Made by a program: the position numbers and the translations under genes. The notes under the pieces are model-generated. The model saw only the letters and a list, made by a program, of their open reading frames with translations. It searched no databases and was not told where the DNA came from. From Candidatus Saccharimonadia bacterium (lineage in GTDB: Bacteria > Patescibacteriota > Saccharimonadia > UBA4664), in the NCBI GenBank assembly GCA_041743505.1, contig JBGTMQ010000021.1, positions 521 to 64,520 of the forward strand: a stretch of DNA of 64,000 nucleotides, given 5' to 3'. Below are positions 27,014 through 55,810 of the stretch, piece after piece (position 1 is the stretch's first letter; each line of letters starts with the position of its first letter).

Positions 27014-27025
27014 CGGCCAGGTCTA

Positions 27026-27442: not shown

Positions 27443-27566
27443 GAGCTGATTATAGCATTCACGGCCAAAGTGCTTGTGCTAATTGTGTTAATATGTTCTG
27501 ATTTTGGTTTCAGATATGTTTGTGCTAATCTCTGAATATCAGCCGTTGCGCTGTGAGGAGGTCATT

Positions 27567-27908: not shown

Positions 27909-27909
27909 T

Positions 27910-30435: not shown

Positions 30436-30441
30436 GAGCAT

Positions 30442-32672: not shown

Positions 32673-32680
32673 GGGCTGAG

Positions 32681-38698: not shown

Positions 38699-38713
38699 AC
38701 TGCGGCCCTTTGT

Positions 38714-39934: not shown

Positions 39935-39970
39935 GCTTGTATCTTCTTATACTGAGCTCGGGATAGCAAA

Positions 39971-40465: not shown

Positions 40466-40480
40466 TATCTACTATTACTC

Positions 40481-40559
40481 TTACTAATAGTTCTCATCAA
40501 GAAAAGCGTAACATAATTATCCAACTATTAGTATCACTAAGTGTTACTAAGACTAATAA
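40481..40559. promoter_or_regulatory. operator-like direct repeats (T/C)TACTAA in divergent promoter region
   Basis: ttactaa at 40481-40487, cactaa at 40535-40540, ttactaa at 40544-40550, actaataa at 40552-40559, between the defence operon start and the XRE gene. Confidence 0.35.
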
Positions 40560-40577
40560 TTCTTTACGCTTGAGTTC

Positions 40578-40808
40578 ATGACGAGAGAAGCATCAGAATC
40601 TAGGTATTTGGCCGCTTTTGGTAAGCGAGTTGCAGAAGTTCGCCGCGACAAAGGCTTCACTCAAGAGTCGTTGGCCGAGAAAGCCGGCGTTACGGCGTTA
40701 ACGATCAGCTACATTGAGCAGGGCCGACAATGGCCGCGCATTGCAACGTTATACAAAATAGCAAATTCACTTGGCGTGGCCGTACAGGAGTTATTTCGCG
40801 GGATTTAA
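40578..40808 (+). CDS. XRE-family HTH regulator (controller-protein-like)
   Basis: GFTQESLAEKAGVTALTISYIEQGRQWPRIATLYKIANSLGV. Divergent from the MTase operon. Confidence 0.7.
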   Translation: MTREASESRYLAAFGKRVAEVRRDKGFTQESLAEKAGVTALTISYIEQGRQWPRIATLYKIANSLGVAVQELFRGI

Positions 40809-41026
40809 TCGGTGGCAAAACTAGGGTACTAAAAAACGGGCTTATGCCCGTTTTCGTTGATAGTTTTTCGCACCTAAAATTATACCTGCAAGTACTCAAG
40901 TTAGGTTCCCCGCTCACAACTATCTATCATTGTTATACCGCTTGTGCATCTAGCATACAACCCGGTAGATTTAGATGTTGGTATTTCAGGCGACGACAGG
41001 CACTAGCGCCATAGTCGGCCCGCAGG

Positions 41027-42265: not shown

Positions 42266-42312
42266 TTGTAATATGTAACATCAAAACAGCATAGTGCTGC
42301 TTATCCTGATCC

Positions 42313-42864
42313 TTATTTTATATAACCGAGGTCCCGAGCCGAATGCCACGCGATTAAGAGGGATGGGTCAATTATCTCTTGCTTGCGGATCATTTCGTCG
42401 AGCTTTTGGACGGGCACAAGCACCTTCTCAACAACCTCAGATGGGTCATCTAGTTTCAGCTCCGAGACCTCAAAGTCGTCGCAATAAAAAAGGTGAGCAG
42501 CCCAGTCCGCACGGCCCGGGTTTGGGTAGAAGCTAGCAAGCTTGACTAGTGACTTTGGTCGAATTCCAACCTCCTCCCGGCATTCGCGGATTGCAGCCTC
42601 CTGGATATCTTCGTTCGCAGGAGAACCGCCCCCAGGAAGGTCATAAATCCATCGGTTTAAGGGGAACCGGAACTGATGTGTCAGTACGATCTGATTGTCC
42701 GGCGTCTTAATGAGCACTGCGACTGCTTTCCCGTCTGAATGTTCAACTTCATACTTAGTGTGTTCGCCATTTGCTAGAACAGCCTCATGCTCGACGACAT
42801 GAAGTCGACCTTTGTAGGCAGTCTTTTCACTCAATCGTTGCCATACGGGGTATCTGTCAGCCAT
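42313..42864 (-). CDS. NUDIX hydrolase (ADP-ribose pyrophosphatase-like)
   Basis: Nudix box GGGSPANEDIQEAAIRECREEVG. Confidence 0.7.
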   Translation of the reverse strand: MADRYPVWQRLSEKTAYKGRLHVVEHEAVLANGEHTKYEVEHSDGKAVAVLIKTPDNQIVLTHQFRFPLNRWIYDLPGGGSPANEDIQEAAIRECREEVGIRPKSLVKLASFYPNPGRADWAAHLFYCDDFEVSELKLDDPSEVVEKVLVPVQKLDEMIRKQEIIDPSLLIAWHSARDLGYIK

Positions 42865-43023
42865 TGTATTCTTCCATCGCGTATTATGTGATAGGTAGAT
42901 TATAGCAAAAACAAGATGTTACACAAATAAAGTGTATGTTACTTTGAGGATGACATTGCTCAATGCTATAGTGGCACCGGGCAAATTTCTCAATCCCCGT
43001 TCGCACCTTGAAGGAGCACAGTC

Positions 43024-43839
43024 ATGCTCAATGTGTTCAAGCCCGCTGACGTCACCGTCTTCTTGCCAGTAGGCGGACGTGCTACGCGTGCGCTGGAAGT
43101 AACGGCTGACACTATACCTAAGCACCTCATCATGCTCGGCAATGGCCTCCCGATTCTCGAAGTTGCGTGCAGGCAGCTCCAGCTCGTCGGCTTCCGCCGG
43201 TTCGTCTTCTGCACCGGGCACCACCAGGAGCAGATCGCGAACTTCGTACGAGAGGGACTGTGGGTGAGCCATGAAAACGTGGACTATGAAATATCAGTCG
43301 AGTTCGAACCACTCGGCCCGGAAGGTGCCATTTTGGCCGCCATCCGTGACTTCGGCATCACTGGTCAGGCGATGTTTATTGCTGGTGACGTCATGGTCCC
43401 GTGGGATGCGCTCGTCACCATGAACGAGCGACACGCCAGCAGACAGGCCGACATCACTGTTGGTCTCACTAGCTACATCACGGAGCGCACAACAGACGTC
43501 GGCAAGATCATTGTTGATCCCGAGGACGGTCGAGTTGTGCGCGTCCATGGACGCACCGAGAAGTCGGTTTGTGGCGACGATGAGCAGGCACTTACTAGCG
43601 CCGGCCTATCTGTTGTTTCAATTCCTCGCTACAGCGAGCTCTGCAGTGAGTACGAAACGTCCCGTGGGCTGGGCGACAAAAAGCCCTTTGGCCTACGCGA
43701 CGATGTTTTGCCGTGGGCGCTCAGGAAAGGCAAGCTCGGCATCTACGGCCACGATCTTCACGGTGAGGTGCTCGATCTGGGCACTCCCGAGAACATTCGC
43801 TATGGACAGGAGAACTGGAGTGAGTATGTACTCGACTAG
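43024..43839 (+). CDS. sugar-phosphate nucleotidyltransferase
   Basis: VFLPVGGRATR (GxGTR-like) N-terminus. AAGGAG 7 nt upstream. GC-rich. Confidence 0.55.
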   Translation: MLNVFKPADVTVFLPVGGRATRALEVTADTIPKHLIMLGNGLPILEVACRQLQLVGFRRFVFCTGHHQEQIANFVREGLWVSHENVDYEISVEFEPLGPEGAILAAIRDFGITGQAMFIAGDVMVPWDALVTMNERHASRQADITVGLTSYITERTTDVGKIIVDPEDGRVVRVHGRTEKSVCGDDEQALTSAGLSVVSIPRYSELCSEYETSRGLGDKKPFGLRDDVLPWALRKGKLGIYGHDLHGEVLDLGTPENIRYGQENWSEYVLD

Positions 43840-43852
43840 GAGAAGGCCCCGA

Positions 43853-45127
43853 ATGCTTTTTAGTTTCTGGGACGGAGGGCGAGGACACTTCACACGCGAA
43901 ATGACGCTCGCAGCCGAAGCCCACCGGCGAGGTTCGGTGGTAGGCTTCATAACCTCAACTCGCTACGCCGATGAGATCAGGAAGCGTATACCGGAAGCTA
44001 CGGTGTATGTCATCCCGACGCGGCCTCCGCACGTCGGTCCGCCTCCGTACCCGTTCCCGCTGTACTCGCACGCTTTCGGGCATGCGCAGAGGCTTAGGGG
44101 CCTGGGATTCGATAATGTGTCCTGGATCCAGGACACTACCGAACAGGAAATCGAGGCTATCCGACAGTTCCGTCCTGATGTCATGGTCAACGACTACCGC
44201 GACACCGTCAGGACGGCCGCCGAGGTCTGCAGGATTCCGCTGGTCGGCGTCGCTGAAACTACCGGCAACGCTAATGGCCGGAAACTCGGTTGGTGGGTAG
44301 CGCCGCCAGAGGGCACGATCCTGCCGGACTGCCGTTCCAGCTTCAATCAGGTGCGGGAGCGTTTTGGCCTGAATCCCATCAGGGACGAGCGTGAGATGTT
44401 CAATGGGGATATCAACATCATCCCCAGCTCTCCGACGCTAGACCCACTGGTTGCACCTTCGCCCAACTCTTACTACGTTGGGCGAATCTGCCAGTGGGTA
44501 CCCGAGGGTGAGAACGTGCCGTATATCGCGCCAGACAAGAGTCGGCGACGCATATATAGCTATGTGGGCGATCCGACACGCCAGGCGTACGGATACGAGC
44601 AAATGCTGGCTGAAGTCATCCGACGCGAGCCCCGCCAAGGGTTCTACATTGCCGGCAACACCGGCCGCTATAACGGAAAGCTCGCGTCACGAGTCAAGGA
44701 CGGAACGGTCGTACTGGAGGACTTTCTTCCTGCCGACCCCCTTATCCGCGACTCGGATGCCGTCCTCTGTCATGGAGGACAAGGAACGGTCATGCAGGCA
44801 CTTGTCCTGGGTAAGCCGCTCATCTGCATCGGGCCGTACCACAGCCAGATGACCTCCATCTTCCGCCCTCTCGAAGAAGCGGGGGCAGGTGTGATGCTGA
44901 ACTATTCGGAAGAGCCTCTTGAGCGCCGACCGGCACCTGACCTCGGCGATGGGGTGGAAATCTTCGGCTACTGGCGTACCGATCTCAGCGCCGATCGTCT
45001 CCATGAAGCCCTGCTGGATGTCTGCAACAATCCGCAGTACGCCGAACGTGCTACCGCTCTCGGTTTAGAGCTTGCGGCACTAGGCGGGGTCGCACAGGCC
45101 GTGGATCTGTGCGAAAGCTTGGCCTAA
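43853..45127 (+). CDS. GT1-family glycosyltransferase (MGT/UDP-glycosyltransferase-like)
   Basis: N-terminal MLFSFWDGGRGHF and C-terminal CHGGQGTVMQAL donor-binding motif. ORF-track start 43460 is an out-of-context extension overlapping the upstream gene. Confidence 0.6.
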   Translation: MLFSFWDGGRGHFTREMTLAAEAHRRGSVVGFITSTRYADEIRKRIPEATVYVIPTRPPHVGPPPYPFPLYSHAFGHAQRLRGLGFDNVSWIQDTTEQEIEAIRQFRPDVMVNDYRDTVRTAAEVCRIPLVGVAETTGNANGRKLGWWVAPPEGTILPDCRSSFNQVRERFGLNPIRDEREMFNGDINIIPSSPTLDPLVAPSPNSYYVGRICQWVPEGENVPYIAPDKSRRRIYSYVGDPTRQAYGYEQMLAEVIRREPRQGFYIAGNTGRYNGKLASRVKDGTVVLEDFLPADPLIRDSDAVLCHGGQGTVMQALVLGKPLICIGPYHSQMTSIFRPLEEAGAGVMLNYSEEPLERRPAPDLGDGVEIFGYWRTDLSADRLHEALLDVCNNPQYAERATALGLELAALGGVAQAVDLCESLA

Positions 45128-45145
45128 GCATAAAACGGGCCGCAC

Positions 45146-45177
45146 GGCTCCGCTCCTGTACACCCGGGAGCGGAGCC
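45146..45177 (+). terminator. stem-loop after glycosyltransferase
   Basis: ggctccgctcc...gggagcggagcc. Confidence 0.45.
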
Positions 45178-45271
45178 AGCTTCATTCGTATAAGTAATTA
45201 TTTTGTAATTCATTGTAGAAGTAGGTGGGGTTGCGTGTACACACAACCCCACCCTGGCCCCATCGACGTAA

Positions 45272-46492
<1,221 letters not shown>

Positions 46493-46519
46493 TTATATCC
46501 AGCACAGGCAGCTTTTATT

Positions 46520-47521
46520 ATGACAGATCTTACCTCCGAAATTGATTTACTTCATAAAACCATCAAAGATCATACTTTTTATTTGGGCCCTATAGAGATT
46601 GAGCATATCGGCAACCAGGGCTATGCCGTCCACTTAACTCGACACCCTGTTATTCATGCGGCCGAGTGGATATTTTATGATCTTGACGATACATTAGTCG
46701 CTTCCTGGGAGGCAAAAGAGCGTCGTATTGGAAACTTTATTACATATTGCCGCTCACAAGGTCTGGAATTGAAGGAGAAGGATCTCCTACTGATATTTCA
46801 GGCGACCGATGAGTATGCTCGGTGGCCAGAGCGCGAAGAAACAATCTACCATTTTCAGGCGCACGTTAACGGGCTAGGCGCAGCCATTGAACTCGTTGTG
46901 TCCAACCAGTCCAGAGAGTTCTCGGATTTGTTCGCCCTCATTCAAGAATATCTAAATAATAATCCTCACGGGAAGCTGCCTCATACGCCACATGCACATG
47001 CATATTCTAACGACCTGATGAGTAAAGTCTTCCATGTCGTTGTTCGCCCTAATATTTTCACGGAAGTTGCTGAATCAATCTCAACACTTCGTGCAAGGGG
47101 AAGGAACATAGGAATCTTTACATATGGAGAGCCACATTTTCAATTACTTAAAACACTTACGCTGCTCCGGGCATATAAACATGAGTCTAAATCAATCGAC
47201 GTCTCCCAAATTTGGCTAACTAAAACAACTAAGGGGGCTTTCATGCAGACAATGGCACAAAAGATGGATGATGTTCGGGCTCGTAAAATACTACTTATTG
47301 ATGACAATCCAGCTGAACTCAATAGTGTCATGGCCGGCATGCGCGATAAAAAAATTGATATAGCCGTAATGAGATCCTTGCGGCATGGCACTAAGACTAC
47401 CGATCATTCATGGAATCATGAGCTTGAAGGTCATCACATTTTTGACGCGAGAACAACGTCCGTATCTACCGATGAGTTCGTCATGCATATTGAACAAGCT
47501 TCAGAACCTACGCGCTCATAA
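46520..47521 (+). CDS. HAD-superfamily hydrolase-like protein
   Basis: Motif I FYDLDDTL (DxDxT) and C-terminal LLIDDNP. Confidence 0.45.
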   Translation: MTDLTSEIDLLHKTIKDHTFYLGPIEIEHIGNQGYAVHLTRHPVIHAAEWIFYDLDDTLVASWEAKERRIGNFITYCRSQGLELKEKDLLLIFQATDEYARWPEREETIYHFQAHVNGLGAAIELVVSNQSREFSDLFALIQEYLNNNPHGKLPHTPHAHAYSNDLMSKVFHVVVRPNIFTEVAESISTLRARGRNIGIFTYGEPHFQLLKTLTLLRAYKHESKSIDVSQIWLTKTTKGAFMQTMAQKMDDVRARKILLIDDNPAELNSVMAGMRDKKIDIAVMRSLRHGTKTTDHSWNHELEGHHIFDARTTSVSTDEFVMHIEQASEPTRS

Positions 47522-48602
47522 CTACCTCCTGGCGCAAGGGATAATCAACCAAAGCCATCAGCTCGTCGAAAAGTTCGACACTGCGTAAAAACAAAGCAAT
47601 CGTCTCCTCCGTTGCGCCGGCATGATGTGGCAGCATTGTGACAAAATGCAGCGCTTCAGCGTAAAGCCCTCGGATATACTCATCTTCCGTAATCTGCTCA
47701 CGCACTCCGTTCAGGGCAGTCTCGTACGCCTTTGGGCCGTGTACTGAGAACGAGAAAGTGTATGGGAGCGACGCATCCTCAATCAAGGTGTATGCGCCTC
47801 GCATAATCGATCCGTAATGACCGTGTATGCTGTGAAGAATCTTGCCGATGTCATATTCCATCGGCATTACCAAATTTCCATTTGGGTCTATAAGAATCAC
47901 CTCGTCACCTTTTGTCAGGATGTTTCCGCAATGTAAATCACCATGGACCAGACCAAGCCTAGTAGGAGTGAGGCGGTCTAGCAGATACGGTGTTGTTTTT
48001 ATACTCTCGACTACGACGTCTGGAGTAGAAAGCTTTCTCCCGTTTATGGTAACGAAAGTCTGTGTGAATAGATTTTTTAGGTATGGTATTGCATCGGCTT
48101 CCTGTCGACGTTTTTCATATTTTTCCATATAGAAAGCGTTCACCCGATCAGGTGTCGCATCAATATTTGTCTCGTCAAATAGCCCCCGATCCAAGTCGAT
48201 CGCTCGACGCACCAATCTTGCTACGAGCCCCGGATCAACTTCATCGATTAAGGCGAGCTCGTCGACCGTTGAAGAGCCATCCACATATTTTATTAGCAGA
48301 GCGGCATACGAATTAGCGATATAGCTGCCGACGTACTCGCCGCCGGATTGAAAGCCTCGCTGCTTAATATGCTCGTACCAAGCGATTTCTTTATGTGTAG
48401 CCGTACCAAAACCAAACTCCGCTTTTAGAAGTAATCTGGTCCCTGGCTCCTCCTTGTAGATAAAAATAAGTGACGCGGTATTGTGTGTGTCAATGATACG
48501 TTCAAGCTTATCGCTCAATATGCTACTTATAATTTCAGTAAGACTCTTGCGTGAGGACGGCTGGATGTTTGCAAGGCGAGTAAGAATATGAGAAGTAGAC
48601 AT
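47508..48602 (-). CDS. phosphotransferase-family kinase (APH/choline-kinase-like)
   Basis: Brenner motif LVHGDLHCGNIL and DPNG. 14-nt convergent overlap with the HAD gene. Confidence 0.6.
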   Translation of the reverse strand: MSTSHILTRLANIQPSSRKSLTEIISSILSDKLERIIDTHNTASLIFIYKEEPGTRLLLKAEFGFGTATHKEIAWYEHIKQRGFQSGGEYVGSYIANSYAALLIKYVDGSSTVDELALIDEVDPGLVARLVRRAIDLDRGLFDETNIDATPDRVNAFYMEKYEKRRQEADAIPYLKNLFTQTFVTINGRKLSTPDVVVESIKTTPYLLDRLTPTRLGLVHGDLHCGNILTKGDEVILIDPNGNLVMPMEYDIGKILHSIHGHYGSIMRGAYTLIEDASLPYTFSFSVHGPKAYETALNGVREQITEDEYIRGLYAEALHFVTMLPHHAGATEETIALFLRSVELFDELMALVDYPLRQEVVMSA

Positions 48603-48730
48603 ACTTAGGTCTGTGATTATCGACCTAATGTTACCATATTAATCATGTAACGTATGATAATATGCTTGAGTGGCACGCTCGTAAAATCATCAAATAAAGC
48701 GTATTCAAAAACATACGCTGAGGGATATTT

Positions 48731-49438
48731 ATGCTTCTTTTCCTAGACACCGCAAATTTAGACGAAATCAGAAATTACGCTTTTCTGCTCCACGGCGTTA
48801 CGACAACGCCAACTATCATCAAGCGCGATAGCGACATGACAAGCGACGAATTCATGGCGGCGGTCAGGAAAGAATTCCCTCATCTTGAAGTTCACGTTGA
48901 AGCCCTAGCTGAGACCGCAGAAGCCACTGAGAAGCTTATAGTTGATGAATTTTGCAAGAAACCCTGGTATGACAAAGATAAGGTGGTCTTTAAAGTGCCT
49001 GTCTCCGTAGAGGGGTTAAAGGCTACTGCTAACTTAGCTAAAAGTGCACCTAGCGTAAGAATTAATTTGCATATGGTATTTGCTGCCGGGCAAGCGATAC
49101 TTGCAATGAAAGCGAAACCGGCTTACATTGCGCCCCTCATAGGCCGATATGCTGACAGGATCGCCGAGCTACGAAGTAACGGTCGACGCTCAGCGGCAAA
49201 CGATGCTGGTCTTGATATGCTTGGGGAAGTTGTGGCATGCAAGGAATCTCTTGGTAGCGATACACATATTCTCACGTCCTCCATTCGGTCAGTTCATGAC
49301 TTTGCGGAGGCGATCAAGCTAGGGGCCGATGCGGCTACACTTCCTCCCGCAATCATGAGTGAGGCACTTGGGCATCCAATGACGGCTGAGGGCGTAGAGG
49401 TATTCTGGAAAGATCTTCAGAAATTAGGCGAAGCTTAA
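48731..49438 (+). CDS. transaldolase / fructose-6-phosphate-aldolase family
   Basis: N-terminal LFLDTANLDEI and catalytic-lysine region VVFKVPVSVEGLKA typical of short Tal/FSA enzymes. Confidence 0.7.
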   Translation: MLLFLDTANLDEIRNYAFLLHGVTTTPTIIKRDSDMTSDEFMAAVRKEFPHLEVHVEALAETAEATEKLIVDEFCKKPWYDKDKVVFKVPVSVEGLKATANLAKSAPSVRINLHMVFAAGQAILAMKAKPAYIAPLIGRYADRIAELRSNGRRSAANDAGLDMLGEVVACKESLGSDTHILTSSIRSVHDFAEAIKLGADAATLPPAIMSEALGHPMTAEGVEVFWKDLQKLGEA

Positions 49439-49521
49439 GACCCTGCGAGCCCGGTGGCAACGGTGAGCTTGCCGGCTGCTGGAAGTCTATAGATAAATAC
49501 GAGTGTCATGTTTTTGTTTAC

Positions 49522-49923
49522 TTACTTGCCTTCATATGCGACTTCGATTTTAATCCTATCGGGGTCTTCAAAATAAACGGCGTAGTAACCTTCGGCGTAT
49601 TCCGGATAAGACTTCGCGCCGCCATAGAGCGCCGGGATGCCACGGGGCTGCAGATATTCTTCTACAAACGTATCAACTGCTTCGGGAGATGAGACACCAA
49701 ACGAGATGTGGTTTAAGCCGGTGTGCTTACGATGAAATGGCGGCTCCTGATAGTCCGGCTTTGTAACCGAGAAGCAAAGAAAGGTGTGGCCGTCGCTGGC
49801 ATCGAAATGATTGCCATCGAGCTTGAGCGTAAAGTTCAGATAGGTCATGAGATCCTTCCAAAAGGGGAAGGATCTTTCTTCGCTGGAGAGGTTGATGCCG
49901 ATATGGCCAAGAGTAGCTTTCAT
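49522..49923 (-). CDS. VOC-family protein (glyoxalase-like)
   Basis: 133 aa from MKATLGHIGINL. ORF extends to 50031. Confidence 0.5.
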   Translation of the reverse strand: MKATLGHIGINLSSEERSFPFWKDLMTYLNFTLKLDGNHFDASDGHTFLCFSVTKPDYQEPPFHRKHTGLNHISFGVSSPEAVDTFVEEYLQPRGIPALYGGAKSYPEYAEGYYAVYFEDPDRIKIEVAYEGK

Positions 49924-50007
49924 GTCCTGTATCTTATCAATCAAAAGCACTCCCTGGAAGGAGCGCTTTTCGATGCATTCATTCGTTAAGGTGTCGAGTG
50001 GTAAGCT

Positions 50008-50388
50008 ATGCGCATGGATACACACCTCCAAGAGCTAGAAAACTTCATGAAAGACTACGAGCAGGCTAACAACAGTCACATCTTTACGAATGTTGCGCCA
50101 TTTATTGCTCCAAATGGAAATTATTGGTTTACGGATGGGTCGTATGCTGGCATTGATGAAATAAGAGATGCAATACAGGCTACCTTCGATAAGATCCAAG
50201 ATGAGCTATATCAGATATCGAATGTGAATTGGCCGGTTATATCGGATACTGCAGCGGCCTGCACGTATAGGTTCTCCTGGGAAGGAACTGTTGATGGCGT
50301 ACATGCTTCTGGCAGCGGCCGCGGCACCAACGTGCTAGAAAAGCGCGATGGATCGTGGAAGATTGTGCACGAGCATCTTAGCCGGTAG
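50008..50388 (+). CDS. SnoaL-like / DUF4440 (NTF2-fold) protein
   Basis: C-terminal GSWKIVHEHLS is typical of the NTF2-like family. Confidence 0.5.
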   Translation: MRMDTHLQELENFMKDYEQANNSHIFTNVAPFIAPNGNYWFTDGSYAGIDEIRDAIQATFDKIQDELYQISNVNWPVISDTAAACTYRFSWEGTVDGVHASGSGRGTNVLEKRDGSWKIVHEHLSR

Positions 50389-50403
50389 CCGCAGAGCTCG
50401 CTC

Positions 50404-51027
50404 CTATTGAAGCAGCGCCTTCCTTAACTCCTGAAGTGAACTAAGTGGAGACCTCCTGATGAAGCTAAGGGCGAAGAACAAGGATGTTATATGCATGCTT
50501 TGATACATAACGCCGGGTTCCGGGTTTTCCATGCTCTCTATGAGCTTATTGAGCGCAATTTTCTCGATAACTAGGCTTTCGCCCGCCTCAAGCTGTTGCT
50601 CTTGGCTGCAATTGCCGCCAATGGCCAGGAACGAATAGACTTTGTTGGTTTGGCTGCCGGGGTTGGGATAACTCACGCCCGTCTGATAGATTTCTCCGCC
50701 TACGTAGCCGATTTCTTCTTCTAGCTCACGCTTAATTCCTACTGTGGGCGAGGGGTCATGTTTTTCGATGCCGCCGCTGACGAATTCGAGGAGGAAATCA
50801 TTTATGGGGTAGCGGTAGTGCCGAACCATAATGAGGTTATTCTCGGAGTCGATAACGACACAATTGGCCCAGTCGTTGTATTCCGACACATAATAAGTGT
50901 CCACGACTCCTCCGGCGGGAGTAACGCATGAGTCTGCCCGAAGCCTGAGCCATTTGTCGTCTACGATGGTCTTTGTGCTGGTTGTTTTCCATTTTTCCAT
51001 ATACATCTCTTTCAGATTAAATCGCAT
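50404..51027 (-). CDS. NUDIX hydrolase
   Basis: Nudix box GGIEKHDPSPTVGIKRELEEEIG. Confidence 0.65.
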   Translation of the reverse strand: MRFNLKEMYMEKWKTTSTKTIVDDKWLRLRADSCVTPAGGVVDTYYVSEYNDWANCVVIDSENNLIMVRHYRYPINDFLLEFVSGGIEKHDPSPTVGIKRELEEEIGYVGGEIYQTGVSYPNPGSQTNKVYSFLAIGGNCSQEQQLEAGESLVIEKIALNKLIESMENPEPGVMYQSMHITSLFFALSFIRRSPLSSLQELRKALLQ

Positions 51028-51221
51028 ACGAGCAAGAGGTTCGATTGTGTTAGTGGTCTACCTCTCCCCTGTCTTCTCATCCTAAGGCCATCCCAAAAAC
51101 CGTCAAGGTCGTTCCAGCTTTTAAGAGCGGGGCTCCACCTTGACGGCTTTCGTGCTGACCTTGGCCCTGGAGCCAGGGGCAGGAGGTCGACCTGCTCGAA
51201 AGAGTAAATGAGGAGGTTGGT

Positions 51222-51536
51222 ATGGAAATTGAACACGCGAGCAAGATTAGTGAGCTGAATGATGCGTTTCGGACGACTGGCCAGGGAGTGACTATTACGT
51301 CTGGTGTCCAGGCGCTGGATGACTTGTATGGCCTGCTGGAGCAGGTGCGGAACTTTGACGAATGGTGGGACGATAGTGATCCCTACGGCGAACATGACTT
51401 TGGTAAATTCATGTGGGGCACGGAGAGGATCTTCTGGAAGATCGATTACTACAATAAGGGTTTGTGTTACTGGGAGGACCCGTTGTCGCCGCGTTGCCAG
51501 CGAATTATGACCGTCATGCTGGCAAGTGAGTATTAG
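51222..51536 (+). CDS. DUF3768-family protein (plasmid/ICE-associated small protein)
   Basis: 104 aa with ...DPYGEHDFGKF... motif. GAGGAGG upstream. Confidence 0.5.
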   Translation: MEIEHASKISELNDAFRTTGQGVTITSGVQALDDLYGLLEQVRNFDEWWDDSDPYGEHDFGKFMWGTERIFWKIDYYNKGLCYWEDPLSPRCQRIMTVMLASEY

Positions 51537-51540: not shown

Positions 51541-51585
51541 GAGGCTCGGAGTCTTTACGACTGCCGGGCCTCCTTTTTTGCGTCG
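51541..51585 (+). terminator. intrinsic terminator between convergent genes
   Basis: ggaggctcgg...ccgggcctcc followed by tttttt. Confidence 0.5.
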
Positions 51586-52340
51586 AGGATTTGGCTAATT
51601 TGCTTCTGCATAATCACTTCAATCACGAGTTCGTCTTCATACGAGTCCTCGATTTCAGTTTCCGTGAACTTGGACAGCTTGTATTGCATGTTCTGCGTGC
51701 TGCAAATAAACAGAATTACCGGCAGCTCTGAGCCGGTGGCGTCCTCCCAGTCCCCTTCTTCGGCATACTTGATGTATTGCTTGATGCGCTTCATCGCCAC
51801 AAAGAATGGCTGTGCGTCGTCCATCATATCTAGTATGAAATGCCTTTCATTGCCGGCAGCGTCCAAACGCAGATATGCATCAGGCATCGGTTTGGGGAAA
51901 TACTCAAAATTTGAAAGCTCGCTCTTGGTGAAATACCGCAGGCGATCCCCGTATTGTGCCTTAAGCTGGCAATAGAGGCGGAATACGACTAGCCGATGGC
52001 GGATGAAGCGATCTGAAGCAGTTTTGTCCTTATAGGCGCTGTGAAGCACGGTGGGGTCGTATTTTTTCTCCGGCAGGCTCTTAAGCGCTCGTATGCCCTT
52101 TGGCAGCAAGTGAAAAGACGCGTGCTGTCCTAGCAAATGATAGTCCGGCCGATATTTGCGGCCAATGTACTCTTGGACCAGCAGTGTCTTTAGGCGGCGG
52201 TTCATTTCACTTTTATCTTTTTTGCCTAGGCTCTTAGCGAGTAGGTCCGTGGTTGCGAAGCGAAAGCGATAGATTAAATGAAGTATGGAGATTTGTTTGT
52301 CATTGAGTGACTTATGGGATGTGGGCTGATGTGTACTCAT
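51555..52340 (-). CDS. replication-relaxation-family-like wHTH protein
   Basis: N-terminal wHTH (QISILHLIYRFRFATTDLLAKSLG). The architecture resembles Replic_Relax proteins of actinobacterial plasmids. Tentative. Confidence 0.35.
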   Translation of the reverse strand: MSTHQPTSHKSLNDKQISILHLIYRFRFATTDLLAKSLGKKDKSEMNRRLKTLLVQEYIGRKYRPDYHLLGQHASFHLLPKGIRALKSLPEKKYDPTVLHSAYKDKTASDRFIRHRLVVFRLYCQLKAQYGDRLRYFTKSELSNFEYFPKPMPDAYLRLDAAGNERHFILDMMDDAQPFFVAMKRIKQYIKYAEEGDWEDATGSELPVILFICSTQNMQYKLSKFTETEIEDSYEDELVIEVIMQKQISQILDAKKEARQS

Positions 52341-52440: not shown

Positions 52441-53658
52441 CTATTTTGTCGCGCGCCGTAAAAGTACTACGCCTAATCCGGCCGCGATCACCGAGGTCAA
52501 TAAGATGCTCAGCTTTGCAGCGGCGTGCAGCCCAAACTCCGCATCGAACGAGAGGTCCGCTACGAATAAAGCTACGGTGAAGCCAATGCCCGCAACGCTG
52601 GAGACGCCAAGCATTTGACTCCAATTAGCACCCTTTGGCAGCCGGGCAATCCCCAGGCGAATCAATAGCCAGGAAGTGCCCGTAATTCCGACGATTTTGC
52701 CGACTAGCAATCCCCCGAATATTCCTAGTCCAACTGTGACCGCCGCAGGCTCATTAAATGGAACTCCGGCTAGTGTAACGCCAGCGTTCGCTAGCGCAAA
52801 CAAGGGGATTATGACGAAGGTGGCGACCGGGAAGAGTAATCTTTCTAGCCGCTCCCCAACCGATAGGCCGCCGAGACCACCGGCCGCAACGGGTGCGAAC
52901 AAGCCGATAATAGCCCCGGCGATGCTAGCCTGCACGCCAGCCATATGAAGGCAATACCAGAGCGCCGCCGTGAGGATGAGAAAGATTGGTACGCCCACCC
53001 GAGTGAATCGTTTTAGCCATAGGGCCAGACCGATCACTCCAAACGCACCTAGCAGGGGCAGCATTGTTAGACTGCCTGAATAAAACACTCCTATGACGAA
53101 GATCGCGCCAATATCATCGACAATAGCTAGGACGAGCAAGAACAGCTTCAGCGAATACGGAACCCGGCTGCCGAGGGCTGCCAATACGGCGGAGGCAAAT
53201 ACGATGTCGGTTGCCATGGGGATGGCCCAGCCATGACTGCCGGCGCCGGTTAGATTGAATTTGAGATAGATAAGCGCAGGGACGATCATGCCGCCGATTG
53301 CGGCCAGGGTTGGCAAAAGAGCTGTGCGTGCGCCGCGTAATTCGCCCCTCACAAATTCACGCTTAATCTCTAAACCGACCACTAGAAAGAAAATGGTCAT
53401 GAAGCCTTCGTTGATGAGATGGCGCCAACCCGACCAGGCAGCCTCATAGCCGCCAAGCAACGATGTATTGGCCCATAGCAGTGCTAGGACGGTAGCCACA
53501 AGGAGAGCTACCCCACCGGCGGCTTCGGCTACTATGAAGTCCCGAAATGGCCACGGGAGGAACCGGCGAATATGAAAGAGAACCGCTACTCGGTGGTCAT
53601 TTGGCTTATGCAAGACTGGCTCCGCTTTTAGAAAGGTCGACCAGACTTCCCGACGCAC
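52441..53658 (-). CDS. nhaA: Na+/H+ antiporter NhaA
   Basis: Signature FFLVVGLEIKREF and polytopic topology. GC-rich. Confidence 0.8.
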   Translation of the reverse strand: MRREVWSTFLKAEPVLHKPNDHRVAVLFHIRRFLPWPFRDFIVAEAAGGVALLVATVLALLWANTSLLGGYEAAWSGWRHLINEGFMTIFFLVVGLEIKREFVRGELRGARTALLPTLAAIGGMIVPALIYLKFNLTGAGSHGWAIPMATDIVFASAVLAALGSRVPYSLKLFLLVLAIVDDIGAIFVIGVFYSGSLTMLPLLGAFGVIGLALWLKRFTRVGVPIFLILTAALWYCLHMAGVQASIAGAIIGLFAPVAAGGLGGLSVGERLERLLFPVATFVIIPLFALANAGVTLAGVPFNEPAAVTVGLGIFGGLLVGKIVGITGTSWLLIRLGIARLPKGANWSQMLGVSSVAGIGFTVALFVADLSFDAEFGLHAAAKLSILLTSVIAAGLGVVLLRRATK

Positions 53659-53968
53659 CTAGAAGCTATTGATTGAGGCGTTATCGCCCCGATATATGCT
53701 TTATTTTAGCACAATTGCCTTGCCTGAAATCGAAGGTAAATCCCTTGCCTCTATACCTATAGATATAGTAAACTATATTCATAGGTATAATAATGCTACG
53801 CGGGGGGCGATATGGGGCGCACAAAGGGCTCAAAGAATAAGAGCGAACTGGTGAGGCCTACGACCTCCGCTCTGACCTCGGAGGGCAGAATTCAATTTCT
53901 AGCAAACCTCATGATTGATCGGGTACTTGGCGACCCAGGCGATCCAAGTAAGAAGGCGGAGGCCTACG

Positions 53969-55711
53969 ATGAATGATTTCCCGCCAAAGGAAAATGGTGT
54001 TGCAGCAATCCGCGTGTCTTCCGTCAAGCAAGGTACTGAGGGCGACTCGCCGGAGGCTCAAAAAGAGCAAATGGCGCAGTTTTTTATGTCTCAAAATCTC
54101 AATCTGAAGAAAGTGTTTATCTTTTTGGAGTCGGCTTCGAAGGACGAGCAGCCGATGCAGGAGGCCATCGACTACTGCAAGGACCCCAAGAACGATATTC
54201 AAGTTTTTGTCATAAAATCGATCGACCGTTTCACTAGGGGTGGCTCCTACTCTTATGATTTCCTTAAGATGCAGCTTGAACGATACAACGTAAAGCTCGT
54301 CGATATATACGGCATAATTAGTTCGCAAAAGATCAACACTTTGGCCCATTTAGGTGTCGAGTATAAGTGGAGTGTGTTTTCCCCCTCTAAGAAGTCCGAA
54401 ATACTTGAGGCTGAGCGTGCTAAAGACGAGATGCGCGATATTATGAGCCGCATGATCGGTGCAGAGATCCGCTACGCCCGTATGGGGTACTGGATACGCA
54501 GAGCGCCCTACGGCTTTGACACGGATAAGCTAGAGACATCGAATGGTAAACGCTGCATTCTGAGGCCAAATGCCTCAGAGGCGCCGTTTGTTATTAAAAT
54601 GTTTGAGCTGAGAGCCCGGGGCACCTTAACGGATGAGCAAATAGTCGAGGAAATCAACCGGCTCGGATATAAATCCAGACTCAAGAAAAAGCGAGATAAG
54701 CACGACAAGACTACGATTGTCGGGCAAACGGGCGGAAATGAGCTTAACCTGAAGCACTTCCTTAAGTTTGTTCAGTACCCCATATACGCCGGCATAAATA
54801 CGGAGAAATGGACACAAGGAAAGGCGACAAAATGTAAGTTTGAGGGTCTCGTCTCGATTGATCTCTTCAACGCCGCAAATAAAGGCAAGCTGACAATCGT
54901 GGAGGAGAACGGTGAAGTGGCGCTCTATAGAATAAGGCCGCCAGAGTACCGCATAACCAAGGGTGTAAAAAATCCCGAGTTCCCTTATAAGAAATATGTC
55001 ATGTGCCCGACCTGCGAAAAGCCCCTTTATGGGAGCGCATCCAAGGGTAGATTAGGCAAGTACTATCCTGCCTATCATTGTAATAGCCGCGGTCACTACT
55101 TTAGGGTGCCATCCAGAGACTTCGAAGAAACGATTACTAAGTTCGTGAAAAATCTTCAAGTCTCGCCGGAATATATTGATGCACTCGTGGAGGCCGTCGT
55201 AACGGAATGGGAGAAGCGTGAAAAGGAACTTCATAAGGACGACGTAAATATTGATGCCCGCATTGCTGAGCTGAAGGCTCAGGCGCGAATGACGGCCGAT
55301 AAAATTCGCTTTCTGAATTCAGAAGTAGCGATTAAGTATATTGAAGAAGACTTGCTAAAAATAGAGGGGCAAATTGCTATGCTGATTGCAGAAAAAGCTA
55401 ACGCGACGGTTCAAGAACCCATAAATATAAGGGTCATTATGGAGAAGGTAAAATATTTTCTGGAACACCTAGATGAACTGCTACTCTACCAGATCAATCC
55501 ACTCGCAAAAGCAGCTTATTTTGGGGTTATTTGGGACAAGGCTCCAACGTACCAGGAAATACTTTCTGGAACCCAAGATTTATCCCTCTGCGAAGGGCTA
55601 AATGAAGTGTTTAAACTTAAGAATATGGAAAATGATTCAATGGTGGGCCATCAGGGACTCGAACCCTGGACACGGAGATTAAGAGTCTCCTGCTCTAACC
55701 AACTGAGCTAA
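53969..55711 (+). CDS. large serine recombinase (integrase)
   Basis: Resolvase N-terminal catalytic domain AAIRVSSVKQ...DSPEAQ, recombinase domain, Cys-rich zinc ribbon (CPTCEK...CNSRGH), coiled-coil. GGAGG upstream of ATG 53969. 3' end overlaps the antisense tRNA-Lys. Confidence 0.75.
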   Translation: MNDFPPKENGVAAIRVSSVKQGTEGDSPEAQKEQMAQFFMSQNLNLKKVFIFLESASKDEQPMQEAIDYCKDPKNDIQVFVIKSIDRFTRGGSYSYDFLKMQLERYNVKLVDIYGIISSQKINTLAHLGVEYKWSVFSPSKKSEILEAERAKDEMRDIMSRMIGAEIRYARMGYWIRRAPYGFDTDKLETSNGKRCILRPNASEAPFVIKMFELRARGTLTDEQIVEEINRLGYKSRLKKKRDKHDKTTIVGQTGGNELNLKHFLKFVQYPIYAGINTEKWTQGKATKCKFEGLVSIDLFNAANKGKLTIVEENGEVALYRIRPPEYRITKGVKNPEFPYKKYVMCPTCEKPLYGSASKGRLGKYYPAYHCNSRGHYFRVPSRDFEETITKFVKNLQVSPEYIDALVEAVVTEWEKREKELHKDDVNIDARIAELKAQARMTADKIRFLNSEVAIKYIEEDLLKIEGQIAMLIAEKANATVQEPINIRVIMEKVKYFLEHLDELLLYQINPLAKAAYFGVIWDKAPTYQEILSGTQDLSLCEGLNEVFKLKNMENDSMVGHQGLEPWTRRLRVSCSNQLS

Positions 55712-55717
55712 TGGCCC
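55641..55717 (-). tRNA. tRNA-Lys (anticodon CTT), CCA encoded
   Basis: Hand-folded cloverleaf. Acceptor GGGCCAT/ATGGCCC, D-arm GCTC..GAGC, anticodon stem GGAGA/TCTCC with loop CTCTTAA, T-arm CAGGG-TTCGAGT-CCCTG, discriminator A plus CCA. Confidence 0.85.
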
Positions 55718-55734: not shown

Positions 55735-55810
55735 TGGTGCGCCCGGAGGGACTCGAACCCCCGACACCGTGGTCCGAAGCCACGTGCTCTATCCACTGAG
55801 CTACGAGCGC
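55735..55810 (-). tRNA. tRNA-Arg (anticodon TCG), CCA encoded
   Basis: Acceptor GCGCTCG/CGGGCGC (one G-T wobble), D-arm GCTC..GAGC, anticodon stem CGTGG/CCACG with loop CTTCGGA, T-arm GGGGG-TTCGAGT-CCCTC, ACCA 3' end. Confidence 0.8.

What the first reader, a model, noticed from the sequence alone, without database searches (positions are those of the whole stretch)
55641..55717. Serine recombinase 3' end overlaps antisense tRNA-Lys: likely integration site of a mobile element
The recombinase ORF is open until TAA at 55709-55711, that is 71 nt inside the minus-strand tRNA-Lys(CTT) gene (55641-55717). The 3' part of the tRNA (inside the recombinase gene) would be element-derived and the 5' part host-derived. 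This is the classic signature of integration into a tRNA gene that the element reconstitutes. tRNA-Arg(TCG) and the housekeeping thiol-redox cluster follow on the host side.
Basis: partly seen in the sequence, partly recalled or inferred. Interest (0 to 1): 0.65.

Follow-up and report, generated by a model that had tools for sequence, protein, structure and literature searches.

The report
Conjugative element inserted at tRNA-Lys CCA end
A 30-kb conjugative element of a candidate-phyla (Patescibacteria) bacterium sits at the very 3' end of an intact host tRNA-Lys gene; insertion cut the last 46 codons off the element's own serine recombinase gene, so the gene now reads on through the tRNA, and hundreds of related genomes show the same layout.

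Summary
A 580-codon large serine recombinase ORF (53969-55711) ends 71 nt inside the antisense tRNA-Lys(CTT) gene (55641-55717).

- Near-identical elements in other genomes abut different tRNAs, and their identity stops 0-8 nt into the tRNA. The tRNA body is therefore host DNA.
- In the window the crossover lies in TGG, the antisense of CCA.
- The left junction is at 25428-25430, next to the tRNA's displaced terminator. The 31-bp tRNA-like repeat at 23201 is not the junction.
- The recombinase frame continues across the rebuilt attP into a conserved 46-codon tail (25430-25567). Integration therefore splits the gene, and the 22 tRNA-encoded codons are chance read-through.
- The tRNA T-arm motif TCGAAC lies 18 nt from the crossover. 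The element's mimic TGGAAC lies 23 nt from it. This 5-bp shift is typical of serine-integrase attB and attP sites.

The 30.2-kb element carries a type IV secretion cluster, a coupling protein and a Replic_Relax protein. In 58 of 80 related loci the ORF runs into an antisense tRNA. I rate this a new variant of a known kind.

The parts
55641..55643 (.). attR crossover core TGG (antisense of the CCA end of tRNA-Lys)
   Evidence: This is the only stretch shared by attL and attR. The bases on both sides differ: A versus T at -1, and T versus A at the discriminator. Identity between sister elements ends here or within 8 nt of here.
55641..55717 (-). Host tRNA-Lys(CTT), intact. Its acceptor 3' strand and T-arm form the B' half-site, with TCGAACC starting 18 nt from the T of TGG.
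   Evidence: ARAGORN. TCGAAC lies at +18 in 38 CCA-encoding target tRNAs. B' consensus.
53969..55642 (+). Body of the large serine recombinase gene: 558 codons up to the junction codon ATG. It holds the catalytic domain, recombinase domain, zinc ribbon with coiled coil, and a helical C-terminal region.
   Evidence: Pfam PF00239. Invariant R15, S17, D86, R87, R90 and the Cys/His cluster C346, C349, H370, C371. AF2 model and Foldseek hits to SPbeta, Bxb1, phiC31 and LI integrases.
55643..55711 (+). Read-through tail: 22 codons plus a stop, encoded by the antisense strand of the host tRNA (VGHQGLEPWTRRLRVSCSNQLS*)
   Evidence: pLDDT is about 31, i.e. predicted disordered. In relatives the read-through runs from 13 to 569 nt, with no conserved length.
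53812..53976 (+). Conserved 54-aa ORF that overlaps the recombinase start. It is a candidate directionality factor or regulator.
   Evidence: Homologues occupy the same position in L175, L171 (WWE3) and L179 (alignment A4). Its function was not tested.
25428..25456 (.). attL: core TGG (25428-25430) plus the P' half-site TGGAGGGCCGTAAGGACCACGCTTGGAAC. The half-site mimics the tRNA-Lys 3' end (13 of 16 bases) and has TGGAAC 23 nt from the core.
   Evidence: The layout is the same as attL of the closest complete relative, L175, where the 8-bp core TGGCTGGG equals the end of tRNA-Gln at attR.
25430..25570 (+). Detached natural 3' end of the recombinase gene: 46 codons (EGRKDHAWNLFLESLVILSKKLDSLGFVYIDGRVSITKPDAEVSRV*). 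Its stop overlaps the start of the PLD gene.
   Evidence: It is in frame with the recombinase across the rebuilt attP. It is conserved as protein in at least 12 other loci, with Ser codons TCG and AGT both used. Unsplit versions occur in L128, L108, L179, P0025, P0032 and P0051. It is predicted as a helix plus beta-hairpin, pLDDT 72.
25370..25391 (-). Intrinsic terminator of the tRNA operon, separated from the tRNA by the insertion (B arm of the former attB)
   Evidence: Terminator scan. The same arrangement, hairpin plus T-run directly next to the core, occurs at attL of L175, L118, L093, L153, L090 and L101.
25563..26045 (+). PLD-like nuclease gene at the left end of the element
   Evidence: Pfam PLDc_2. 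It is in the same position next to attL in L175 and next to the tail module in L091, L108 and L118.
27504..35287 (+). Type IV secretion cluster: VirB2-like pilin, VirB6/TrbL-like, PrgI, TraC-like, VirB4 ATPase, CHAP hydrolase, and an 868-aa coupling protein
   Evidence: Pfam and NCBIfam. Same gene order in L175/L002 and L024.
35373..51395 (.). Cargo: NurA/HerA/DNA methylase module, NUDIX, glycosyltransferase, UDP-galactopyranose mutase, kinase, transaldolase and others
   Evidence: Pfam and PADLOC. These genes are absent from related loci.
51555..52340 (-). Replic_Relax (PF13814) protein, a candidate atypical relaxase or replication protein
   Evidence: Pfam. A homologue lies about 1.5 kb upstream of the recombinase in 59 of 80 loci.
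52441..53658 (-). NhaA Na+/H+ antiporter, cargo inserted between Replic_Relax and the recombinase
   Evidence: Pfam E 2e-113. No counterpart in related loci.
55735..55810 (-). Host tRNA-Arg(TCG), upstream in the same tRNA operon

Best explanation
Window 25431-55640 (30.2 kb) is an integrative conjugative element of a family found across Patescibacteria. Its large serine recombinase integrated it at the extreme 3' end of the host tRNA-Lys(CTT) gene.

Shown by the sequence comparisons:
- The crossover lies within TGG, the antisense of CCA. The whole tRNA body is host DNA, and the tRNA remains intact.
- The attP site lies inside the recombinase gene, 46 codons before its natural stop. Integration therefore splits the gene.
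- The 558-codon body stays at attR and reads on through the antisense strand of the tRNA to a chance TAA.
- The natural 46-codon tail, followed by a PLD-nuclease gene, ends up at attL.
- The tRNA's own terminator is displaced by 30 kb.

Inferred:
- The enzyme recognises the tRNA side of attB through the acceptor strand and the universal T-arm. TCGAAC lies 18 nt from the crossover. The element's P' arm mimics this with TGGAAC at 23 nt. This is the 5-bp offset by which serine integrases tell attB from attP.
- Using the conserved T-arm would explain how the family uses at least ten tRNA species.
- Excision would rebuild the full-length gene.
For: 1. The ORF/tRNA overlap and the large-serine-recombinase identity are established.
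2. The pattern holds across the family. There are 340 relatives in species-level genomes. In 58 of 80 loci the ORF runs into an antisense tRNA: Glu 25, Gln 17, Arg 5, Gly 3, Lys 3, Ser 2, Asp, Trp and Leu 1 each.
3. Sister elements whose recombinase 3' ends are 93-99% identical sit next to different tRNAs, and their identity ends 0-8 nt into the tRNA. Compensatory acceptor-stem changes show that this part is host sequence.
4. Several contigs end exactly at TTGGCTGGG or TTGGTGC.
5. L175 is the complete closest relative. Its order is guanylate kinase, terminator, TGGCTGGG, tail, PLD, T4SS, coupling protein, Replic_Relax, recombinase, TGGCTGGG, rest of tRNA-Gln.
6. The window's attL at 25428 has the same anatomy.
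7. The recombinase frame is continuous across the rebuilt attP into a conserved peptide. In 13 of the 15 tail-module copies aligned, NTGG lies exactly 24 nt before TGGAAC or TGGCAC.
8. Unsplit ORFs or their remnants occur in L128, L108, L179, P0025, P0032 and P0051.
9. P0361, a close relative's attL ORF, starts MVGH, which corresponds to TGGTGGGCCA, the 3' end of tRNA-Lys.
10. The 5-bp shift of the zinc-ribbon motif between attP and attB is established for serine integrases (PMC3783163).
11. The T4SS, coupling protein and Replic_Relax genes all lie between attL and attR.
Against: - No empty site and no circular junction was recovered for this host. The closest thioredoxin-reductase relatives (64-68% identical) have no tRNAs at that locus.
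- The window's attL and attR share only 3 exact bases. The P'-type pattern alone is not significant in 64 kb: 2 matches against 0.76 expected. The case for this attL therefore rests on homology of the tail and PLD module and on anatomy shared with L175.
- Only one half of each att site shows a recognisable motif. The P and B arms show no clear dyad partner.
- The exhaustive search found only small attL-type ORFs for this tail subtype. No full-length unsplit gene of this subtype was found.
- No canonical relaxase is present.
- A 30/31 tRNA-Lys 5'-half repeat at 23201-23231 remains unexplained.
Confidence: 0.82

Rival explanations
1. The crossover is inside the tRNA, for example in the anticodon loop. 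The tRNA 3' half within the recombinase ORF is a copy carried by the element that rebuilds the gene. The left junction is the 31-bp repeat at 23201-23231.
For: A 30/31 direct repeat of tRNA-Lys positions 8-38 lies 32.4 kb upstream. It starts exactly in the anticodon loop and lies left of the T4SS genes.
Against: The repeat covers the 5' half of the tRNA, not the 3' half. It carries a different acceptor strand (GCGCTCG), and what lies to its left is not tRNA-like. The displaced host 3' half that this model requires is absent from the whole window. Near-identical sister elements carry different T-arms, anticodon arms and D-arms, so these are host sequence. The conserved attL anatomy lies at 25428, 2.2 kb to the right. 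No such 5'-half fragment occurs in any other locus.
Confidence: 0.05
2. The mobile unit is only a small mobilisable element (coupling protein, Replic_Relax, recombinase). The T4SS cluster is resident chromosomal DNA, as proposed for Patescibacteria in general, and the attL at 25428 belongs to an older, unrelated insertion.
For: A published survey found Patescibacteria T4SS to be chromosomal, widespread and mostly without relaxases (PMC12102498). None of the 80 VirB4-anchored metagenome loci has a recombinase of this family within 10 kb; the only recombinase hit, in L148, is 24% identical. Some T4SS clusters (L178, L180, L182) show no recombinase nearby. The WWE3 element (L171-L174) has a coupling protein and Replic_Relax but no T4SS within 10 kb.
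Against: In both complete cases (the window and L175) the T4SS lies between an attL and an attR whose cores match the same tRNA. The window's P' arm mimics the tRNA-Lys acceptor end specifically (13 of 16; the relative P0361 matches 10 of 10). At least 9 T4SS loci carry the tail/attL module beside the cluster.
Confidence: 0.1
3. The recombinase is a domesticated, immobile chromosomal gene that happens to neighbour tRNA genes. The overlap is read-through with no link to integration.
For: The read-through tail itself looks meaningless: it varies in length and is predicted to be disordered. No excised form was observed.
Against: The neighbouring tRNA and the host flanks differ among close relatives. 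The loci show tandem arrays (L179, L056), an insertion into a protein-coding gene (L068) and fossil attP sites (L108, L128). The catalytic residues are invariant.
Confidence: 0.03

Closest known systems
Large serine recombinases / serine integrases (phiC31, Bxb1, A118/LI, SPbeta SprA, TP901-1; TnpX/TndX of clostridial conjugative transposons)
   Same: The domain order is catalytic domain, recombinase domain, zinc ribbon with coiled coil. The catalytic Ser and Arg residues are invariant. The core is short. A distal motif lies 5 bp further from the crossover on the element side (P') than on the host side (B'), as described for LI integrase (PMC3783163). The enzyme serves as the integrase of a large mobile element.
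   Different: Sequence similarity to characterised enzymes is barely detectable: PDB profile search gives E 0.056 to TP901-1 only. The target is the CCA end of tRNA genes, and the gene is not disrupted. Known serine-recombinase elements mostly insert into and disrupt protein-coding genes (PMC5704250). attP lies inside the enzyme's own coding sequence.
SSV-type ('suicidal') tyrosine integrases of archaeal viruses and plasmids
   Same: attP lies within the integrase ORF. The target is a tRNA gene. Integration splits the integrase gene and excision restores it (PMC7253208).
   Different: Those are tyrosine recombinases of archaea. Their split gives two inactive pseudogenes. Here the enzyme is a serine recombinase in bacteria, only the last 46 of about 604 codons are detached, and all the domains that match solved serine integrases stay in one ORF.
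Classic tRNA-targeting genomic islands and ICEs with tyrosine integrases (P4-like, ICEBs1, NBU1)
   Same: The element inserts at the 3' side of a tRNA gene, which stays functional. The integrase gene lies next to the tRNA.
   Different: Those elements carry a copy of the tRNA 3' segment and are flanked by 15-50 bp or longer direct repeats of it. Here the repeat is 3-10 bp (TGG, plus a few more bases in relatives), and the enzyme belongs to the other recombinase superfamily.
Integration-dependent immunity of mycobacteriophages (attP inside the repressor gene)
   Same: Integration changes the C-terminus of a phage protein because attP lies within its gene. This is from my own knowledge (Broussard et al. 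2013) and I did not read the paper here.
   Different: There the affected gene is the repressor, and a functional effect has been shown. Here it is the recombinase itself, and any functional effect is untested.
Patescibacteria MPF-FATA-like type IV secretion clusters (PMC12102498)
   Same: The gene set is the same: VirB2-like pilins, TrbL/VirB6, PrgI, VirB4, CHAP hydrolase and coupling protein. No canonical relaxase is present.
   Different: That paper treats the clusters as chromosomal and probably not conjugative. It does not mention recombinases, integrases or tRNAs. Here, two clusters are bounded by attL and attR sites of a serine recombinase.

Membership tests
Large serine recombinase (serine integrase) | N-terminal resolvase-type catalytic domain with a nucleophilic Ser and conserved Arg/Asp residues | tested here: met
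   Pfam PF00239 at 29.3 bits against a cut-off of 23.3. R15, S17, Q21, D86, R87 and R90 are invariant in 30 homologues. Foldseek hits to resolvase-family catalytic domains.
Large serine recombinase (serine integrase) | C-terminal recombinase domain followed by a zinc-ribbon domain with an embedded coiled coil | tested here: met
   AF2 model: recombinase domain 183-330 (pLDDT about 90), beta-rich 354-394 with invariant C346, C349, H370, C371, then helices 400-481. Full-length Foldseek alignments to SPbeta integrase (E 4e-16) and Bxb1 (2e-12). PF07508 is recorded for some homologues.
Large serine recombinase (serine integrase) | attP and attB half-sites carry the same distal motif, 5 bp closer to the crossover in attB | tested here: inconclusive
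   Met for the tRNA-side arms: T(C/G)GAAC lies at +18 in B' (38 tRNAs) and at +23 in P' (10 attL sites). No matching motif was found in the P and B arms. Binding was not tested.
Large serine recombinase (serine integrase) | Strand exchange at a 2-bp central dinucleotide, with 2-nt 3' overhangs | not testable with these tools
   Sequence comparison only limits the crossover to TGG in the window.
Integrative conjugative element | Integrase plus a mating-pair-formation T4SS and a coupling protein within one att-bounded unit | tested here: met
   attL at 25428 and attR at 55641 enclose pilin, VirB6, PrgI, TraC-like, VirB4, CHAP and the coupling protein. The same holds in L175.
Integrative conjugative element | Relaxase and oriT | tested here: inconclusive
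   The only candidate is a Replic_Relax PF13814 protein, with no NCBIfam hit. It is linked to the recombinase in 59 of 80 loci. No canonical MOB family was found, and oriT was not sought.
Integrative conjugative element | Demonstrated excision and transfer | not testable with these tools
   No circular junction or empty site was recovered.
Classic tRNA-integrating island (tyrosine integrase type) | Tyrosine recombinase, plus a direct repeat of the tRNA 3' segment at the far end | tested here: not met
   The integrase is a serine recombinase. No second copy of the tRNA-Lys 3' half or T-arm exists in the window.
SSV-type self-splitting integrase | attP inside the integrase ORF, so that integration partitions the gene | tested here: met
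   The ORF is continuous across the rebuilt attP in the window and in L175. Unsplit forms occur in L128, L108, L179, P0025, P0032 and P0051.
SSV-type self-splitting integrase | Tyrosine recombinase fold (archaeal SSV family) | tested here: not met
   The fold is that of a serine recombinase.

The most novel reading that the evidence does not exclude
The split is a built-in sensor of integration state. The excised element makes a 604-aa recombinase carrying a structured 46-aa C-terminal module, while the integrated element makes a 580-aa protein with a disordered tail encoded by the tRNA. This swap may set the direction of recombination, possibly together with antisense read-through from the tRNA operon, which has lost its terminator, and with the conserved 54-aa upstream ORF. 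If the elements also transfer, with Replic_Relax acting as the missing relaxase, then some or many of the 'chromosomal, non-conjugative' T4SS of Patescibacteria would in fact be parts of conjugative elements.
Probability: 0.25. Interest if true: 0.85.

Novelty: new variant of a known kind. Interest (0 to 1): 0.7.

Why it matters
- Integration at tRNA 3' ends is regarded as typical of tyrosine recombinases. Elements with serine recombinases usually disrupt protein-coding genes (PMC5704250). Here a large, highly conserved family of serine recombinases appears to use the universal T-arm and CCA end of tRNA genes as its host site. There are more than 1600 database proteins and 340 hits among species-level genomes.
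- This gives a ready-made set of natural attP/attB pairs on different tRNAs.
- It also gives a bacterial, serine-recombinase counterpart of the archaeal self-splitting integrases.
- It provides concrete element boundaries around type IV secretion clusters of Patescibacteria. The function of these clusters is an open question: conjugation, or something else in the epibiotic lifestyle. A 2025 survey found no relaxases and did not mention recombinases, integrases or tRNAs (PMC12102498).
- With defined att sites, excision and transfer become directly testable by PCR, read mapping or in vitro recombination.

Tried and rejected
1. The 31-bp repeat at 23201 as attL. I followed this first and rejected it. 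It has the wrong tRNA half and the wrong acceptor strand, there is no displaced 3' half, and sister-element comparisons contradict it.
2. An empty site through host synteny. Exact copies of thioredoxin reductase and the GNAT protein exist only on contigs of the same strain. The nearest relatives (64-68% identical) have no tRNAs next to the redox cluster.
3. Direct repeats within 10 kb upstream of the recombinase in 80 loci. None were found, because the elements are longer than the flanks.
4. A metagenome scan anchored on VirB4. It gave 80 T4SS loci but no family recombinase within reach. These loci later proved useful as a source of attL sites.
5. A candidate 12-bp repeat in the WWE3 element (L173 2746 and 11655). 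It is weak (p about 0.05), it would cut a gene, and no P'-type site lies nearby. I treat it as chance.
6. K-mer searches (8-11 nt) for a short core in the window. All hits were at chance level. The real attL shares only 3-5-nt blocks with attR.
7. A PDB sequence search with the single protein found nothing. The profile search gave only E 0.056 to TP901-1. Fold comparison was needed.
8. An exhaustive search with the 46-aa tail found only four small attL-type ORFs.
9. Two further VirB6 look-ups in search of a third complete compact element. Both elements were too long.
10. Dyad symmetry between the P and P' arms. None was found.
Full report
OBSERVATION. ARAGORN finds two tRNA genes in the window, both on the minus strand: tRNA-Lys(CTT) at 55641-55717 and tRNA-Arg(TCG) at 55735-55810. 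A plus-strand ORF runs from 53915 to TAA at 55709-55711. The likely start is ATG 53969, which gives 580 aa and matches database protein P0001 exactly. The ORF overlaps the tRNA by 71 nt. It matches the Pfam Resolvase catalytic domain above the curated cut-off. Thioredoxin reductase, glutaredoxin, DsbD and thioredoxin genes follow on the right.

THE PROTEIN. Sequence similarity to solved structures is marginal. The single sequence finds nothing, and a family profile reaches only E 0.056 to the TP901-1 catalytic domain. The AlphaFold model built on a 30-member alignment (mean pLDDT 74.6) shows these parts: a resolvase-type domain (8-112), a long helix (139-171), a well-predicted recombinase domain (183-330), a beta-rich zinc-ribbon region (354-394), two long coiled-coil helices (400-481) and a helical C-terminal part. 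Foldseek aligns the model over its full length to SPbeta integrase (E 4e-16) and Bxb1 (2e-12), and in part to phiC31 and LI integrases. R15, S17, D86, R87, R90 and the cluster C346/C349/H370/C371 are invariant in the alignment. The protein is a large serine recombinase. The last 30 residues, which the tRNA antisense strand encodes, have pLDDT of about 31.

THE OVERLAP IS A FAMILY TRAIT. The protein has more than 1600 database homologues at roughly 60% identity. Almost all of them end in '...L/M-A/V-x-x-x-G-F/L-E-P...', which is the antisense translation of a tRNA 3' end.
- A scan of one genome per species found 340 relatives, all in Patescibacteria-type assemblies: Saccharibacteria, Microgenomates, WWE3, Levy-, Shapiro- and Roizmanbacteria.
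- In 58 of the 80 fetched loci the ORF runs into an antisense tRNA. The counts are Glu 25, Gln 17, Arg 5, Gly 3, Lys 3, Ser 2, and Asp, Trp and Leu 1 each.
- 46 of the 58 tRNAs encode CCA.
- The read-through varies from 13 to 569 nt.
- Twelve further contigs break at or inside the tRNA.
- A Replic_Relax protein lies upstream in 59 loci. A homologue of the 868-aa coupling protein lies upstream in 41. A full T4SS cluster lies within 10 kb in about 7.

WHERE THE CROSSOVER IS. A 30/31 repeat of tRNA-Lys positions 8-38 lies at 23201-23231. It is the wrong half of the tRNA. It continues into a different acceptor strand (GCGCTCG). The sequence to its left is a GNAT gene start, not tRNA. The displaced host 3' half that the model needs is nowhere in the window.

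The decisive test came from sister elements.
- L010 and L012 are 99% identical through the end of the recombinase gene up to '...AACTTAGTGACCCC'. They then continue into tRNA-Glu(TTC) and tRNA-Glu(CTC), which have different T-, anticodon- and D-arms.
- L022 and L024 (Gln-CTG and Gln-TTG) diverge after TGGCTGGG. Their acceptor stems differ by compensatory changes.
- L055 and L060 (Arg-TCG and Arg-GCG) diverge right after TTGG.
The boundary between element and host is thus 0-8 nt inside the tRNA 3' end, and the tRNA body is host DNA. Contigs L004 and L006 end exactly at TTGGCTGGG. This is what an assembly graph would do at a branch between alternative junctions.

THE LEFT JUNCTION. I retrieved the whole element of the closest relative with the same gene order (L175, the same contig as L002) by looking up its VirB6 protein. 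Its order from left to right is:
- guanylate kinase (host);
- a minus-strand terminator;
- TGGCTGGG;
- a short conserved ORF;
- a PLD nuclease and an HTH protein;
- the T4SS genes and the coupling protein;
- Replic_Relax and the recombinase;
- TGGCTGGG and the rest of tRNA-Gln.
The 8-bp core is the last 8 nt of the tRNA.

The window has the same anatomy just left of its PLD gene. There is a minus-strand terminator at 25370-25391, followed 36 nt to its right by TTGGAGGGCCGTAAGGACCACGCTTGGAACC. The TGG of this sequence lies at 25428-25430. This stretch matches the tRNA-Lys 3' end TGGTGGGCCATCAGGG at 13 of 16 positions. Only TGG is identical between attL and attR. The base before it differs, and so does the discriminator after it. 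In this element the exchange must therefore lie within TGG, the antisense of CCA. The element spans about 25431-55640, or 30.2 kb.

THE RECOMBINASE GENE IS SPLIT. I joined the P side (ending in the codon ATG at 55640-55642) to the P' side (starting at 25430). The frame stays open for 46 more codons: EGRKDHAWNLFLESLVILSKKLDSLGFVYIDGRVSITKPDAEVSRV. The stop overlaps the PLD start (GTGTTTAG). The same reconstruction in L175 gives AGLVSRRWNHLYPTLLSIYQKLDSLGFEYIEGKVSYPELEEHDV. The two peptides line up without gaps, and Ser is encoded by TCG in one and AGT in the other, which points to selection on the protein.

tblastn finds this module in L101, L118, L093, L090 (two copies), L108, L144, L153, L128, L091, L055 and L070. 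In 13 of the 15 copies aligned, NTGG lies exactly 24 nt before the Trp-Asn or Trp-His codons (TGGAAC or TGGCAC). The exceptions are two decayed copies, L055 and L070.
- Most copies are preceded by a terminator hairpin and a T-run. This is the attL form.
- In L108 and L128 the module is preceded by the 3' coding end of a recombinase gene ('...VNELFKLVLSGTSSL|VRLIDSQWH...'). This is the unsplit attP form.
- The full-length proteins P0025, P0032 and P0051 also carry Trp-Asn nine and ten residues after the junction codon.
- The contig of P0051 (L179) is a tandem array. Its left element has a P arm identical to that of L010 and L012 up to TTAGTGA, and then a P' arm. It is followed by a second element whose recombinase is 33% identical and also runs into a tRNA.
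- An exhaustive search with the 46-aa tail found four small ORFs. One is P0361, which begins MVGHEDHCWN. That start corresponds to TGGTGGGCCA, the exact 3' end of this tRNA-Lys type.
- The tail is predicted as a helix plus a beta-hairpin (pLDDT 72, from five sequences). The tRNA-encoded tail is predicted to be disordered.

ATT-SITE LOGIC (INFERENCE). The consensus of 47 B' arms is TGGTGacC.Ca..GGGA.TCGAACCCC. The consensus of 10 P' arms is TGGTG.ACCA.gT.GAC.TtAC.TGGAAC. Both begin like a tRNA acceptor end. Both carry T(C/G)GAAC, at +18 in the tRNA (the T-loop and T-stem) and at +23 in P'. A distal motif shifted by 5 bp between attB and attP is how serine integrases place their zinc-ribbon domains differently on the two sites (PMC3783163). 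I therefore propose that the zinc-ribbon domain reads the universally conserved T-arm. This would explain the family's range of target tRNAs. The P and B arms show only a shared T-rich stretch and no clear partner motif. This part is not established.

CONSEQUENCES (INFERENCE).
- The tRNA is not altered, but its terminator is moved 30 kb away. No minus-strand terminator follows it inside the recombinase gene. Read-through from the tRNA operon would therefore be antisense to the recombinase.
- In the integrated state the enzyme keeps every domain that matches solved serine integrases but has a junk tail.
- At attL the tail ORF starts at the junction NTG codon and is coupled to the PLD gene.
- Whether the exchange of tails controls direction is untested.
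- A conserved 54-aa ORF overlapping the recombinase start (53812-53976) is a candidate partner.

ELEMENT CONTENT.
- A PLD nuclease, an HTH protein and small ORFs lie at 25563-27442.
- The T4SS cluster lies at 27504-35287.
- Cargo lies at 35373-51395. It includes a NurA/HerA/methylase module, NUDIX, glycosyltransferase, UDP-galactopyranose mutase, a kinase and transaldolase.
- Replic_Relax lies at 51555-52340.
- NhaA lies at 52441-53658, and the recombinase follows.
- No canonical relaxase is present.

COMPARISON WITH WHAT IS KNOWN. The enzyme is a member of the large serine recombinases by fold and by catalytic residues. In the library I could search, I found no description of a serine-recombinase family that targets tRNA 3' ends, and none of this family in Patescibacteria. 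Reviews assign tRNA 3' ends to tyrosine integrases and gene disruption to serine-recombinase elements (PMC5704250). Self-splitting integrase genes are known for archaeal SSV-type tyrosine integrases (PMC7253208). The 2025 survey of Patescibacteria T4SS reports chromosomal clusters without relaxases and does not mention recombinases, integrases or tRNAs (PMC12102498). I therefore rate this a new variant of a known kind.

LIMITS.
- No empty site and no circular form was recovered.
- The window's attL rests on homology and shared anatomy, because only TGG is shared with attR.
- Only two complete elements were inspected.
- Most T4SS loci could not be followed as far as a recombinase.
- The tRNA-Lys 5'-half fragment at 23201-23239 remains unexplained.

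Noticed in passing
window 23201-23239 (-): An orphan 5' half of a tRNA-Lys(CTT). It is 30/31 identical to positions 8-38 of the intact gene but has the acceptor strand GCGCTCG, and its first 17 nt equal the 5' end of the neighbouring tRNA-Arg. It stops in the anticodon loop exactly at the ATG of a GNAT acetyltransferase gene (22710-23201), and its anticodon-stem GGAGA serves as that gene's Shine-Dalgarno sequence. It lies 2.2 kb outside the element. No such fragment occurs in any other locus. One possibility is a relic of a chimeric Arg/Lys tRNA copy. It remains unexplained.
   Followed up: partly
window 53812-53976 (+): A conserved 54-64-aa ORF (M.R.K..NK....P.T..L...ERIQFLA.LIIDRI..DQ) overlaps the start codon of the recombinase gene. 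It is found in the window, in L175, in WWE3 (L171) and in L179. It is a candidate directionality factor or regulator.
   Followed up: partly
L179 1-12860; L056 2300-5450: Tandem arrays at one tRNA. In L179 an element with an unsplit recombinase is followed by a second element whose recombinase is 33% identical and also reads into a tRNA at the contig end. In L056 an attP-type junction is followed 3 kb later by a degenerate tRNA-Gln 3' remnant.
   Followed up: partly
L108 16131-16322; L128 15409-15873: Fossil attP sites. Only the last 15-95 codons of a recombinase gene survive, still fused in frame to the tail module and the PLD gene, next to the coupling-protein end of a T4SS cluster.
   Followed up: partly
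L068 11560-12100: In one Patescibacteria genome the recombinase ORF is fused, after TGGTGAG, to the C-terminal part of an unrelated protein-coding gene, with TGGAACC at +19. This looks like an insertion at a secondary (pseudo-attB) site.
   Followed up: no
L001, L004, L006, L009 and eight other loci (contig ends): Twelve of 80 contigs end at or within the tRNA next to the recombinase. Several stop exactly at the inferred core (TTGGCTGGG, TTGGTGC). This suggests mixed populations of alternative junctions in the samples.
   Followed up: partly
L087 1644-1690 (-): An orphan tRNA 3' portion (CCA end through the T-arm to the anticodon stem) lies between a Fur-like gene and the left side of a T4SS cluster whose VirB4 is 87% identical to the window's. 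The CCA-crossover model does not predict it. It may be a scar of another kind of element.
   Followed up: no
window 35373-39934 (-): The cargo includes a NurA-like nuclease, a HerA-like ATPase (PADLOC HerA, E 4e-19) and a type II DNA methyltransferase in a row. This is a defence-like module.
   Followed up: partly
window 23319-23609 (-) and 23987-25261 (-): Just outside attL lie a MNT-type nucleotidyltransferase (PADLOC PDC-S09, E 4e-24) and a 424-aa ORF with no family match. Together with the low-GC stretch 18-23 kb, this suggests that the host side of attL is itself an older accessory region.
   Followed up: no
L165, L168, L170: In the nearest relatives of the host (thioredoxin reductase 64-68% identical) the thiol-redox cluster is conserved, but no tRNA genes lie next to it. 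The tRNA-Arg/tRNA-Lys position in the window's genome is therefore specific to its lineage.
   Followed up: partly
L010, L023, L026 and other loci (record titles): Many assemblies that carry this Patescibacteria-type recombinase and T4SS are labelled 'uncultured Gammaproteobacteria' or 'Pseudomonadales', and one is labelled Methanobacterium. These are probably mislabelled or contaminated bins.
   Followed up: no
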